Positions 21,001 to 24,000 of a stretch of 40,851 bases of DNA are shown piece by piece. This DNA is from a virus. Its lineage: Duplodnaviria; Heunggongvirae; Uroviricota; Caudoviricetes. The position numbers are program-made. The DNA lies in the IMG/VR virus record IMGVR_UViG_2721755728_000008. One strand, 5' to 3'. Numbering within the stretch: position 1 is the stretch's first letter; the number at the start of each line of letters is the position of its first letter.

Positions 21001-24000
21001 GACACACGTAATGCCGCGTAGGCATACACCAGGCAGTCCAGCGCTTCGTTACGCCGCTTTTTGTTATCCCACAGCAGACGCATCTTTCCTTTTTCCCACT
21101 TCTCCACAAGCTCTTCCGCGACCAGTTGCTGCGCCTCTGTCTGCGAAAAAATCTCCGGATCATCAGGAAAACGGATGGCATACGACGTGGCTTCATCCGC
21201 AGGAGTGGGATCGGCTTTCATACGGGCATAGAGAATTTCTTTTGCGGTGTCCGTCCCCACTTCACACAGATACACGCCCCGCTGATTGCGGGTTTTCGGC
21301 ATGGTGATCACCGGCTTGCCATAGACAGATGCGCCTTTTACCGGCAGCACCCGGAAAACACCGTGTTTTTTTGACCTCTGATAGACAATTTCACCATCGA
21401 TCCCCCCGGTGTCCCAGCAGACACGGGAAATGGTCATTTCGGTTCCGTCTGCATGGCAGTATTTTTTGTTGATCGCCGCATCCACACGTAACAGCGTCTC
21501 TTCCTCATCGGGACGGCCCATAATGATGATTTTATCCACCAGAAAGGCTTCCTCTCCCTGTGCCCATCCCCAGACATACATCTCAAAACGGTTTCGCTGC
21601 GAGTCAATGCCCGCCGTCAGATAAACCACCCGGGCAGGCACCGCCGCCGTGTAACGCACCACCTTATCCATCAGTACCTGGTGATCGAGTTTTTCGCCCA
21701 CGGCCTCTTCCCAGGTCTCGCCCAGCGTGGTGTTCACAAAGGTTTTCAGGCCGTTGGGATCTTTCAGTGCATCCAGCCAGTCATAGACTATCTGTATCCA
21801 GGTGGTGAACGGACTGTACGCCGTCCAGATATGGAACGTGATGGAGCGCGGCGGCGGAATTTCATCCCCCCGGGCGCTGAAAAACATCAGGCCGTCACGG
21901 GTCCACATACCCGTGTTTTCACAGATCCAGCGCCCGTTACTCTGGTCAAGCTCAGACTGATGGATCACGCAGCCATGATGTTCACAGAGGTAGAAAACGC
22001 TTTCGGGGCTGTCCTTCTCCCATTTAAGGCCAAAAGGCGTGGATTCATCGCCAAATTTCAGATACTGCGCCTCCCCACAGTGCGGGCAGGGCACATAGAA
22101 ACGCATGAAATGCGCCGACTCGTTGGCCGCTTTTTCGATCTGGCAGGTACCTTTGATTTTAGGCGTCGAGCCGCGAATGGATTTTGGCCATACAGAGCCC
22201 TCAATACGCTTATCCCCCAGCAGGGTTGGCGAGCCCTCTTTTTCGACATCCGGCTCGAACGAGGAAAGCTCGTCATAGCAGACCACGTCCACGGATTTTT
22301 CACGGTAGTTTTTGGCGGCTGCACCGCCCAGGCACCAGAAACCGACGCCCGATGAAAAGCGTTTCAGCGTGAGAGTATTGTCACGATGTTTACGACCCAG
22401 CCATGGGGAAAGGTCTTTCAGGCATGGCACGTTCCGAATCGTCGCCTCCACGTGAGACTTCATAAAATCTTCAGCGGCAGAATCCGTGGGCTGAAAAAGC
22501 AGACTGTTTCGGGATTTATGCTCAATAAAATACCCGACCACCCCCAGCAACATCTTTGTATAGCCAACACGGGCAGATTTAATCAGGTTAACCGTGCGAA
22601 CCTGGTCGTTACCCATACAGTTCATAATGGCGATCTGGAATGGCAGCGTTTTCCATTCTCCCTCACCATATGAAGATTCTTTAGGCAGATAATAATTTTG
22701 ATCAGCCCATTCAACTGCCGTCATTGGTACAACCCTGACCAGAGGCTGCAGCGCAACCGAAACGGCAGCCATCATATTATTCAGTTGTTGCTCTGATATA
22801 TTCATCGAGTAAATCCGGTAATTTATCCCCTGCCCGCGCACACTGATTTGCCCCCTTCGCAATAAGGGTTTTCAGATGGTCAAGATGGCGCGGTGTTAAA
22901 TCAGGAAACTGTCGCTGCATGGATAAAGGGATGGAATCAAGCGTACTGGATAACGCCATTGCCAGCTTACTGAGGGCAAAAATACAGAACCCGGTGTCAA
23001 TAAGTTTTCCTTTTGACACCTCATTTTTTAACTGCTGTGTAACAGCCTGTTCTGCTGTCAGTTCCCATCTGGCAATAAGCAATTTCTCCTCATAGTCGTC
23101 TTCGCTATCGCCATCAGGCACATCGTTTTTACTTCTCCTCAGATACGATATGTAAAAATCGCGCCAGGCATCCAGATCCAGTTGCCCTCGCTTATTCGAT
23201 ATCGGGGCACCCGGCAATTTCTGCAATCTGCGAAGCTGGCGATCGGTCAGACTTAAATGCCTGGCAACTTCAGTCTGCGTAGCCACTCCTCACCTCGCAA
23301 AAACTCTCACCTCACAATCACAACAAAACCGGTCATGTCCGGTTTACATGTCTGTTTTTTGTTCATGTCCGGTTCACAGAAGACCTGTTTTTATATTTTT
23401 CATATAGTTAACTTGAAGAGAAACCGGACATGGATCCCGGAAAATTTTCATAAATAGCGAAAACCCGCGAGGTCGCCGCCCCGTAACCTGTCGGATCGCC
23501 GGAAAGGACCCACGAAAATGATAATAATTATCATCTACATGAGGTTTATCACGACATGTGTGTACGCCATCAAACCACGAGAAATAATCAATTATTACGC
23601 AGGTATCGTATTAATTGATCTGCATCAAATTAGCGTAAAAGCAACTTCAGATAATACAAATCAGCAACACTGAATACGGGGCAACATTATGTCATCAAAG
23701 AACAGAACCCGCAGAACAACAACCCGCAACATCCGATTTCCAAACCAGATAATTGAACAAATTAACATCGCTCTTGACCTGAAAGGTTCAGGTAATTTTT
23801 CAGCGTGGGTTATTGAAGCCTGCAGAAGAAGATTAATTAATGAAAAATATTCTCAATTTGTACCCAACAAAGACAAACACGACCAGAGCACCTGTTCAGA
23901 CAGGTTTACTTAAACGACTTATATATGACACAAAAAGCGACCACTAAAGTCGCTTTTTCTTATGGTAACAGGCAATAACTCTCTCAGATATTTTTTAGCA

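What the first reader, a model, noticed from the sequence alone, without database searches (positions are those of the whole stretch)
23284..23482. cos region with three CATGTCCGGTT repeats and a divergent Nu1 N-terminus
cosN and cosQ closely match lambda as I recall it, but the cosB repeats (two direct, one inverted, 30 bp and 58 bp apart) differ from lambda R sites. In parallel, the Nu1 N-terminal DNA-binding region differs while its C-terminus is conserved. This suggests a different packaging specificity with a conserved nicking site.
Basis: partly seen in the sequence, partly recalled or inferred. Interest (0 to 1): 0.35.

Follow-up and report, generated by a model that had tools for sequence, protein, structure and literature searches.

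The report
Lambda-like cos with new terminase-binding boxes
This is the DNA-packaging start site of a lambda-like prophage: its cutting site is almost identical to lambda's, but its terminase-recognition repeats and the matching DNA-binding domain of the small terminase subunit are of a common type that has not been characterised.

Summary
CATGTCCGGTT occurs exactly three times (23334-44 +, 23364-74 +, 23422-32 -). A fourth copy with one mismatch overlaps one of them. All lie between a lambda-identical cosQ/cosN and the small-terminase gene, on the minus strand.

Similarity to lambda stops at bp 45 of the left end. The first box sits at bp 50-60, where lambda, 21 and N15 have R3. An inverted box follows after a spacer that is 47 nt long in all ten lineages checked, from several enterobacterial genera. 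In several relatives the spacer holds a perfect IHF consensus.

The small subunit matches lambda Nu1 only over residues 73-164 (46%). Its N-terminal 55 residues show no significant sequence match, but they are predicted to fold as the same winged helix-turn-helix.

Across 33 N-terminal variants, residue 20 of the predicted recognition helix is the only position that tracks one base of the box (Arg with G; Ser/Thr/Asp/Asn/Lys with T). Relatives carrying an N15-type N-terminus carry N15-type boxes instead.

The module is in about 21% of complete E. coli genomes, in viable PhiR12 phages and in O157 Sakai Sp4/Sp14. I found no paper describing its boxes. It is a new member of a known kind. Binding and specificity remain untested.

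The parts
23505..23511 (-). cosQ (GGGTCCT)
   Evidence: Identical to lambda cosQ and at the same distance from cosN.
23470..23481 (-). cosN: predicted 12-nt cohesive end GGGCGGCGACCT. Base n of the left end is window coordinate 23482-n.
   Evidence: Identical to lambda bp 1-12. The flanks are identical from the right-end sequence GATCCGACAGGTTACG through bp 45 of the left end (23497..23437). Nicking is inferred, not shown.
23438..23452 (-). I2-like conserved segment TATGAAAATTTTCCG. This is the last stretch shared with lambda; the mosaic joint lies at bp 45/46 (23437/23436).
   Evidence: It is labelled 'IHF' in the Sakai Sp4/Sp14 alignment.
23422..23432 (-). R3-equivalent box CATGTCCGGTT (bp 50-60), in the same orientation as the terminase genes.
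   Evidence: It lies at the R3 position of lambda (bp 50-65), 21 (bp 50-65) and N15 (bp 48-60). It is invariant in 23 distinct cosB variants from 79 loci. It is present at bp 50 in all enterobacterial relatives.
23398..23410 (-). I1-equivalent, candidate IHF site (TAACTATATGAAA), followed by an A/T-rich tract.
   Evidence: At the same offset in the 47-nt spacer, relatives L006, L008 and L015 have a perfect WATCAANNNNTTR match (0.3-1% of shuffles do as well). The window copy has 2 mismatches and is not above chance on its own.
23364..23374 (+). R2-equivalent box (CATGTCCGGTT read on the + strand; bp 108-118), inverted relative to R3.
   Evidence: The R3-R2 spacer is 47 nt in all ten lineages examined, although its sequence has diverged.
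23334..23344 (+). R1-equivalent box (bp 138-148), in the same orientation as R2, unlike lambda and 21.
   Evidence: It is present in E. coli, Klebsiella and Enterobacter kobei relatives and absent in Salmonella and Citrobacter ones. It is less conserved, with a common variant CATGTCCGGcT, and a natural 30-bp deletion fuses R2 and R1.
23327..23337 (-). Degenerate fourth copy CATGaCCGGTT, overlapping R1 and forming a near-palindrome.
   Evidence: It is not conserved in L039/L043, so it is probably incidental. The scan also scores it as a weak terminator-like hairpin.
22777..23286 (-). Small terminase subunit (Nu1-type), 169 aa, GTG start preceded by GAGGTGAGGA. Residues 1-55 are a divergent winged-HTH domain; residues 73-164 are lambda-like.
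   Evidence: Pfam PF07471 matches residues 49-150 only. BLASTP against lambda covers residues 73-164 at 46%. AlphaFold models and fold matches to lambda-type small-subunit DNA-binding domains support the N-terminal fold.
20877..22805 (-). Large terminase subunit (gpA-type). The likely true start is the ATG at 22805 (MNISEQ...).
   Evidence: 66% identical to lambda gpA over 639 residues.

Best explanation
The segment is the cos site of a lambda-like prophage and is read on the minus strand. cosQ and cosN are of the lambda type and are presumably nicked by a gpA-type large subunit. cosB is made of R boxes with the core (C/G)ATGTCCGGTT in the order R3 (bp 50-60), IHF-like site, inverted R2 (bp 108-118), R1 (bp 138-148). 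These boxes are the binding sites of the winged helix-turn-helix domain formed by the first ~55 residues of the adjacent small subunit. By analogy with lambda and 21, a dimer of that domain would bridge R3 and R2 across a bend, probably induced by IHF. This would place the large subunit on cosN. Because both the boxes and the recognition helix differ from those of lambda, 21 and N15, the phage should package its own DNA and DNA with the same cosB (for example co-resident prophages such as Sakai Sp4 and Sp14), but not lambda-type or 21-type DNA. Shown here: the sequence anatomy, positional conservation, protein-DNA covariation, joint exchange of domain and boxes, and the predicted fold. Inferred: binding, bending, nicking and specificity.
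For: (1) The anatomy matches a lambda-type cos. Identity to lambda ends at bp 45, and the first box begins at bp 50, where R3 lies in lambda, 21 and N15.
(2) The boxes keep their positions in E. coli, Klebsiella, Salmonella, Citrobacter and Enterobacter relatives (13-mer windows starting at bp 50, 106 and 136; invariant 47-nt R3-R2 spacer), while the spacer sequences have diverged beyond alignment.
(3) An unbiased repeat search recovers the same inverted pair in each lineage.
(4) Among 33 N-terminal variants with an xTCCGGTT box, residue 20 of the predicted recognition helix is the only one of 50 positions that separates G-type boxes (TGTCCGGTT; Arg20) from T-type boxes (TTCCGGTT; Ser/Thr/Asp/Asn/Lys20). 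This includes an independent non-enteric Arg20 lineage, L117.
(5) Small subunits whose C-terminal part is 60-72% identical but whose N-terminus is N15-type carry N15/Monarch-type boxes (GGTTGTTGTT) instead.
(6) Distant relatives keep the box next to a lambda-like end. In Aeromonas phage phiARM81ld the record starts at GGGCGTTAGACC and has CATTTCCGGTTCCGGTT at bp 52-68. Pseudomonas phage LPPA33 has the same motif about 30 nt before the start codon.
(7) The model of the N-terminal domain alone (pLDDT 83) has helices at 4-10 and 15-22, a wing, and a helix at 38-54. Its fold matches are MerR-type winged HTH domains and lambda-type small-subunit DNA-binding domains (7lw0_A TM 0.61; 6hn7_B TM 0.72, rmsd 2.5 A).
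(8) R3 is invariant in 23 cosB variants, R2 nearly so, and R1 is the most variable. This mirrors the functional hierarchy reported for lambda.
(9) The module is carried by viable phages (PhiR12_1 to _5) and by Sakai Sp4/Sp14, where Sp4 DNA is packaged although its own nu1 is disrupted.
Against: There is no binding, cleavage or packaging experiment for this class. Foldseek E-values are all 0.5 or higher, as expected for a 58-residue domain, and the profile alignment to lambda Nu1 is weak (E 0.012, probability 3.5%). The IHF-like site in the window itself has 2 mismatches and is not above chance. R1 is oriented opposite to lambda and 21, so the higher-order complex may differ. The residue-20 covariation rests on perhaps two independent changes. 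In lambda's register, the base that varies would be expected nearer the C-terminal end of the helix, so a direct Arg20-G contact is not established. Within the near-identical population, boxes taken together are not significantly less variable than spacers (Fisher p = 0.27). N15 terminase packages lambda DNA, so divergent boxes do not guarantee mutual exclusion.
Confidence: 0.85

Rival explanations
1. The boxes are bound by a different protein, such as a phage or host transcription factor, or a satellite-type redirecting protein like Rpp, and not by the N-terminal domain of the small subunit.
For: No direct binding data exist. PICI cos sites show that the R3 position can be read by a protein other than the small subunit. 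A PerC-family gene and a DUF3950 gene lie just upstream of cos.
Against: The boxes covary with one residue of the small subunit's predicted recognition helix, and they are exchanged together with that domain. They persist next to the small-subunit gene in Aeromonas and Pseudomonas phages whose neighbouring genes are otherwise different. No sigma-70-like promoter is found in the region.
Confidence: 0.07
2. The inverted repeats act through nucleic-acid structure: a hairpin in the late mRNA that controls Nu1 translation, a terminator, or a DNA cruciform.
For: R3 and R2 can pair in the predicted RNA fold. The R1 near-palindrome followed by T-rich sequence is scored as terminator-like.
Against: The fold energy is no better than shuffled sequence (z = -0.39; 72 of 200 shuffles fold at least as well). 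The palindromic half of R1 is lost in L039/L043. Distant relatives have a single, non-inverted box. What is conserved is the box sequence and its exact distance from cosN, not pairing potential.
Confidence: 0.04
3. The boxes are real small-subunit binding sites, but specificity is not exclusive. As with N15 and lambda, this terminase, or lambda's, can also use the other cos.
For: N15 terminase packages lambda DNA despite a very different R3 and recognition helix. cosQ, cosN and the I2 segment here are lambda-identical. Lambda itself has TTTCCGGTTT at bp 39-48, which resembles the T-type box core.
Against: cosB as a whole is less similar to lambda's than phage 21's cosB is (alignment z 2.6 against 5.9), and lambda and 21 exclude each other by more than 1000-fold. 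The N-terminal domain has no detectable sequence similarity to lambda's.
Confidence: 0.2

Closest known systems
Phage lambda cos and terminase (cosQ-cosN-cosB with R3-I1-R2-R1; gpNu1/gpA)
   Same: cosQ, cosN and the I2 segment match lambda through bp 45 with one mismatch in the stretch from cosQ. R3 begins at bp 50. R2 is inverted and lies beyond an A/T-rich, IHF-like spacer. The small-subunit gene follows cosB and overlaps a gpA-type gene that is 66% identical. The C-terminal two thirds of Nu1 are homologous.
   Different: The box sequence differs (CATGTCCGGTT against CGTTTCC(T/G)TTCT). R3-R2 centre-to-centre distance is 58 bp, against about 49 bp in lambda. R1 has the opposite orientation. 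The N-terminal DNA-binding domain is not recognisable by sequence: Pfam PF07471 covers lambda residues 1-60 but not this protein's.
Phage 21 cos and gp1 (the classic alternative packaging specificity)
   Same: The logic is the same: shared cosQ and cosN with a different cosB and a different recognition helix. R3 is at bp 50-65 and R2 at bp 107-122, almost the same spacing as here. The 21 boxes begin CATGTCGG or CGTGTCGG, which resembles CATGTCCGG.
   Different: 21 gp1 has a lambda-like N-terminus that differs mainly in the recognition helix (abstract), whereas here the whole domain is replaced. Overall cosB similarity to 21 is not significant (z 1.9; 17 of 500 shuffles). R1 in 21 is direct.
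Phage N15 and Monarch-type cosB
   Same: It is another lambda-like cos whose small subunit has a divergent N-terminus. The distant relatives of the present class (phiARM81ld, LPPA33) have a simple cosB with a single R3 region, like N15.
   Different: N15 and Monarch boxes are GGTTGTTGTT, and the N-terminus is MAVLLNKSDMASS.... They occur as alternative modules on a related C-terminal domain.
E. coli O157:H7 Sakai prophages Sp4 and Sp14, and phages PhiR12_1 to _5
   Same: They carry the same Nu1 and the same cos region (the Sakai alignment shows the same residues, allowing for machine-read PDF text; PhiR12 Nu1 is 99.4% identical and its cosB 93%).
   Different: These are sequence records only. 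The published Sakai alignment marks cosQ, cosN and an IHF site and stops at the first bases of R3. The boxes and their relation to the N-terminal domain are not described.

Membership tests
Lambda-like cos site | 7-bp cosQ upstream of cosN | tested here: met
   GGGTCCT lies at 23511..23505, with the same spacing to cosN as in lambda.
Lambda-like cos site | cosN with a lambda-like 12-nt cohesive-end sequence | tested here: met
   GGGCGGCGACCT at 23481..23470 is identical to lambda, and the flanks are identical to bp 45. This is sequence only; nicking cannot be tested here.
Lambda-like cos site | R3 box about 50-65 bp from the nick, at a critical fixed distance | tested here: met
   The box occupies bp 50-60 and sits at the same position in all enterobacterial relatives.
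Lambda-like cos site | IHF site I1 between R3 and R2 | tested here: inconclusive
   The window copy has 2 mismatches to WATCAANNNNTTR, and 70% of shuffles do as well. Relatives have perfect matches at the same offset.
Lambda-like cos site | R2 inverted relative to R3 | tested here: met
Lambda-like cos site | R1 in the same orientation as R3 | tested here: not met
   R1 has the orientation of R2 in the window, Klebsiella and E. kobei. Only a degenerate, non-conserved overlapping copy is direct. One relative (L112) has a direct R1.
Lambda, 21 or N15 packaging-specificity groups | R-box sequence and recognition helix of that group | tested here: not met
   The boxes differ from those of lambda, phi80, 21, N15 and Gifsy-1. 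The N-terminal domain has no significant sequence match to any of them.
Nu1-type small terminase subunit (Pfam PF07471) | Homologous C-terminal self-association and large-subunit-binding region | tested here: met
   PF07471 E = 1e-18 over residues 49-150. 46% identity to lambda Nu1 over residues 73-164.
Nu1-type small terminase subunit (Pfam PF07471) | N-terminal winged helix-turn-helix DNA-binding domain | tested here: inconclusive
   It is not detected by sequence, and hhalign is weak. The predicted fold is a winged HTH, and lambda-type small-subunit domains are among the top fold matches (TM 0.61-0.72), but all E-values are 0.5 or higher.
Nu1-type small terminase subunit (Pfam PF07471) | Gene lies directly after cosB and overlaps a gpA-type large-subunit gene | tested here: met
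Nu1-type small terminase subunit (Pfam PF07471) | Sequence-specific binding to the R boxes of its own cosB | not testable with these tools
   Support is indirect only: covariation and joint exchange of the domain and its boxes.

The most novel reading that the evidence does not exclude
This would be a fourth documented packaging-specificity family of the lambda-like cos phages. It spans Enterobacteriaceae, Aeromonas and Pseudomonas, and its sub-specificity is set largely by one recognition-helix residue paired with one base of the box (Arg20 with G at bp 53; Ser/Thr/Asp/Asn/Lys20 with T). If so, which co-resident prophages can package one another, as proposed for the EHEC prophage pool, could be predicted from sequence. 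Specificity could also be re-programmed by a paired change of one residue and one base pair.
Probability: 0.45. Interest if true: 0.5.

Novelty: new member of a known kind. Interest (0 to 1): 0.35.

Why it matters
[quoted passage not shown] That paper remarks that the observed diversity is modest, although diversity should be advantageous when several lambdoid prophages share one cell.

The module described here is in about one fifth of complete E. coli genomes (1155 of 5426), often alongside other lambdoid prophages. It is carried by O157 prophages whose cross-packaging has been proposed to spread virulence genes.

Defining its boxes gives a sequence-level rule for which prophages, plasmids or satellites a given terminase can mobilise. 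The single covarying residue and base give a compact system for testing how winged-HTH small subunits read DNA. In kind, however, this is an expected variation on a well-understood mechanism.

Tried and rejected
- A sequence search of the PDB with the whole Nu1 found nothing relevant.
- Pfam and NCBIfam gave nothing for the N-terminal domain. PHROGs places the whole protein in phrog_57, 'terminase small subunit'.
- Profile alignment of the N-terminal domain to lambda Nu1 gave the expected register but was weak.
- Foldseek with the full-length model was dominated by the long helices, so I repeated it with the N-terminal domain alone.
- Global alignment of cosB (bp 46-195) with lambda, phi80, 21 and Gifsy-1 showed only marginal similarity. 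The resemblance of CATGTCCGG to the CATGTCGG of phage 21 therefore cannot be called homology.
- A test of box against spacer variability among near-identical loci was not significant (p = 0.27), because R2 and R1 carry low-frequency variants and indels. Only R3 is invariant.
- The RNA-structure and promoter readings were rejected.
- The palindromic fourth copy was considered as a lambda-like direct R1 and set aside, because it is not conserved.
- The genome-contig scan returned only 12 loci, so most of the diversity came from IMG/VR and from exact-protein look-ups.
- Full-text searches for the motif string and for cosB with O157 found no description of these boxes. Subscription-journal papers, such as the Virology 2015 papers on N15 and on 21/lambda contacts, could not be searched.
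Full report
**What is there**

The late region of a lambdoid prophage is read on the minus strand of the window. In order it holds:
- holin, lysozyme and Rz;
- a PerC-family gene;
- cos;
- a 169-residue Nu1-type small terminase subunit (23286..22777, GTG start after GAGGTGAGGA);
- a gpA-type large subunit.

The large subunit is 66% identical to lambda gpA. Its true start is most likely the ATG at 22805.

CATGTCCGGTT occurs exactly three times, at 23334-44 (+), 23364-74 (+) and 23422-32 (-). Start-to-start spacings are 30 and 58 nt. A fourth copy with one mismatch lies at 23327-37 (-). It overlaps the first copy and forms a near-palindrome. With up to one mismatch, 0.86 matches are expected in the whole window. 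Four are found within 106 nt.

**Relation to lambda**

In the orientation of the terminase genes, the window differs from lambda at a single position from cosQ (GGGTCCT, 23511..23505) through bp 45 of the left end. This stretch includes the cohesive-end sequence GGGCGGCGACCT (23481..23470). Similarity then stops abruptly. With bp n = 23482-n, the boxes lie at:
- bp 50-60, direct;
- bp 108-118, inverted;
- bp 138-148, inverted.

Lambda R3 is placed at bp 50-65 and N15 R3 at bp 48-60. The annotated 21 R3 and R2 correspond to bp 50-65 and 107-122. The first two boxes therefore sit where R3 and R2 sit in the known systems.

The third box is oriented like R2. In lambda, phi80, 21 and Gifsy-1, R1 is oriented like R3.

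The box sequence differs from all described types:
- lambda and phi80: CGTTTCC...;
- Gifsy-1: CAGATCC...;
- 21: C(A/G)TGTCGG...;
- N15 and Monarch: GGTTGTTGTT.

Overall cosB similarity to those phages is marginal (z 1.7-2.9, against 5.9 for lambda versus 21).

**The protein**

BLASTP aligns the small subunit with lambda Nu1 only over residues 73-164 (46% identity), and with 21 gp1 over residues 64-166 (40%). Pfam PF07471 covers residues 49-150 only, whereas it covers residues 1-60 of lambda Nu1. A sequence search of the PDB finds nothing for the N-terminus.

An AlphaFold model of residues 1-58, built on 15 homologues (pLDDT 83), gives helices at 4-10 and 15-22, a loop or wing at 23-36, and a helix at 38-54. 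Its Foldseek matches are uniformly MerR-type winged HTH domains: BldC, RdfS, RacA, HiNmlR, SoxR. They also include 7lw0_A, 7lwr_A, 7lxs_A and 6hn7_B (TM up to 0.72, rmsd 2.5 A). A sequence search shows that these four are lambda-type small-subunit DNA-binding domains.

The E-values are all 0.5 or higher, as expected for so small a domain, so the fold assignment is likely rather than proven. A weak profile alignment puts residues 16-23 (RQLRRLQK) in register with lambda's recognition helix, residues 17-24.

**Comparative evidence that the boxes and the domain belong together**

1. *Homologues from other genera.* Exact-protein look-ups of homologues 60-81% identical fetched cos regions from Klebsiella, E. 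coli, Salmonella, Citrobacter and Enterobacter kobei. In all of them:
   - an xTCCGGTT box starts at bp 50;
   - an inverted copy follows after a spacer of exactly 47 nt;
   - the spacer sequences differ widely.

   A third box at the window's position and orientation is present in Klebsiella and E. kobei. It is absent in Salmonella and Citrobacter.
2. *Unbiased repeat search.* A repeat search with no motif supplied recovers the same pair in each lineage.
3. *IHF site.* At a fixed offset in the spacer, three lineages have a perfect IHF consensus (0.3-1% of shuffles do as well) and others have one mismatch. The window has two mismatches, which is not significant alone.
4. *Two box types.* The boxes come as ATGTCCGGTT and A(T/C)TTCCGGTT. 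I tabulated 33 distinct N-terminal variants retrieved by protein similarity from IMG/VR, genomes and GenBank phages. Residue 20 is the only one of 50 positions that separates the two types. It is Arg with G, and Ser, Thr, Asp, Asn or Lys with T. The Arg/G pairing recurs in a non-enteric lineage, L117, which has GTGTCCGTGTCCGGTT. At least two independent changes are therefore implied.
5. *Joint exchange.* Small subunits with a related C-terminal part (60-72% identity) but an N15-type N-terminus are preceded by GGTTGTTGTT boxes in the Monarch arrangement. The N-terminal domain and cosB are thus exchanged as one module.
6. *Distant relatives.* Some relatives have a simple cosB.
   - Aeromonas phage phiARM81ld: the record begins at a lambda-like end, GGGCGTTAGACC. 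It has CATTTCCGGTTCCGGTT at bp 52-68, directly before the small-subunit gene.
   - Pseudomonas phage LPPA33 and many IMG/VR contigs have the same layout after a recognisable cosQ.
7. *Variation within one population.* Among 79 loci with an identical N-terminal domain (23 distinct cosB sequences), R3 never varies. R2 varies rarely. R1 has a common variant. The palindromic fourth copy is lost in two variants, and one variant has a 30-bp deletion fusing R2 and R1. The order R3 > R2 > R1 matches the functional hierarchy known for lambda.

**Mechanism proposed**

By analogy with lambda and 21 (established knowledge summarised), a dimer of the N-terminal domains would bind R3 and the inverted R2 across a bend, probably induced by IHF. 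R1 would add affinity. The C-terminal part would hold the gpA-type subunit, positioning it to nick the lambda-identical cosN.

Because both partners of the recognition differ, packaging specificity should differ from lambda, 21 and N15. This last step is inferred. N15 shows that divergence need not give reciprocal exclusion.

Rival readings fit the data poorly:
- A different binding protein fits poorly because the boxes covary with, and are exchanged together with, the small subunit's N-terminal domain.
- An RNA or DNA structure is unlikely: the fold is no more stable than shuffled sequence (z = -0.39) and no promoter is found.

**Is it known?**

The module is common. A match covering at least 80% of a 341-nt query is present in 1155 of 5426 complete E. 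coli genomes. It is carried by the viable phages PhiR12_1 to _5.

The same Nu1 and cos are shown for O157 Sakai Sp4 and Sp14 in Figure S8 of Asadulghani et al. 2009. The authors proposed there that Sp14 terminase packages Sp4. Their alignment ends at the first bases of R3, and no R boxes are marked.

PHROGs files the protein under a 'terminase small subunit' family. The Feiss laboratory's papers list only the lambda, 21 and N15 specificities, with Gifsy-1 described by sequence. Full-text searches for the motif found nothing relevant. Subscription-only papers could not be searched.

**Verdict**

This is a new member of a known kind: a lambda-type cos with an uncharacterised, widespread recognition module. 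The architecture shows two modest departures from lambda: a reversed R1 and an R3-R2 distance about 9 bp longer than lambda's and similar to that of 21. It also yields a testable one-residue, one-base specificity rule. Interest is moderate to low (0.35).

Noticed in passing
window 23995-24309 (-): There is a PerC-family transcriptional-activator homologue (Pfam PF06069, E = 4e-44) between the lysis genes and cos. PerC/Pch-type regulators on prophages control virulence loci in pathogenic E. coli.
   Followed up: no
window 23689-23913 (+): A 74-residue DUF3950 protein (PF13132) is encoded on the strand opposite to the late genes, just upstream of cosQ.
   Followed up: no
window 23287-23317 (-): Two copies of TG(T/C)GAGGTGAG lie 17 nt apart between R1 and the GTG start of Nu1. 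The second copy provides the ribosome-binding site. The purpose of the duplication is unknown.
   Followed up: no
window 23437-23445 (-); L002 (lambda) bp 38-48: All lambda-like cos sites examined share TTTTCCGG at bp 38-45, and lambda continues as TTTCCGGTTT, which resembles the T-type box core TTCCGGTT. This could be coincidence, or a hint that the boxes arose by local duplication.
   Followed up: partly
L104 (IMG/VR contig); corresponds to window about 23335-23365: A natural variant has a 30-bp deletion that fuses R2 and R1, as expected from recombination between the two direct 16-nt repeats. This shows that R1 is dispensable or easily lost.
   Followed up: partly
L018, L111, L114, L132, L136, L153, L154: These small subunits have a C-terminal part related to the window's but an N15-type N-terminus (MA(V/F)LLNKSDMASS...). 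They are preceded by GGTTGTTGTT boxes in a direct-inverted-direct (Monarch-like) arrangement. This is a clear case of exchange of a cosB-plus-DNA-binding-domain module.
   Followed up: partly
L117, L188, L223 (LPPA33), L224 (phiARM81ld): In distant relatives the single R3 region is a pair of overlapping copies 6 bp apart (TTCCGGTTCCGGTT, or TGTCCGTGTCCGGTT in L117). This suggests two adjacent half-sites instead of a looped R3/R2 pair.
   Followed up: partly
window 23257-23457 (+); L001 1577-1699 (-): A 66-codon ORF runs across cosB on the + strand of the window. The PhiR12_1 record annotates a 'hypothetical protein' across its cosB on the strand opposite to its terminase genes. Both are probably spurious.
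   Followed up: no
window 22805-22862 (-): The mechanical ORF for the large terminase subunit starts at a TTG at 22862. Alignment with lambda gpA indicates that the real start is the ATG at 22805 (MNISEQ...), overlapping the end of Nu1 by 29 nt.
   Followed up: yes
L016, L017 (Shigella flexneri and E. coli chromosomes): These loci hold truncated remnants of this small-subunit gene (C-terminal residues 68-169 only, 94% identical), with unrelated sequence upstream in place of the N-terminal domain and cos.
   Followed up: no
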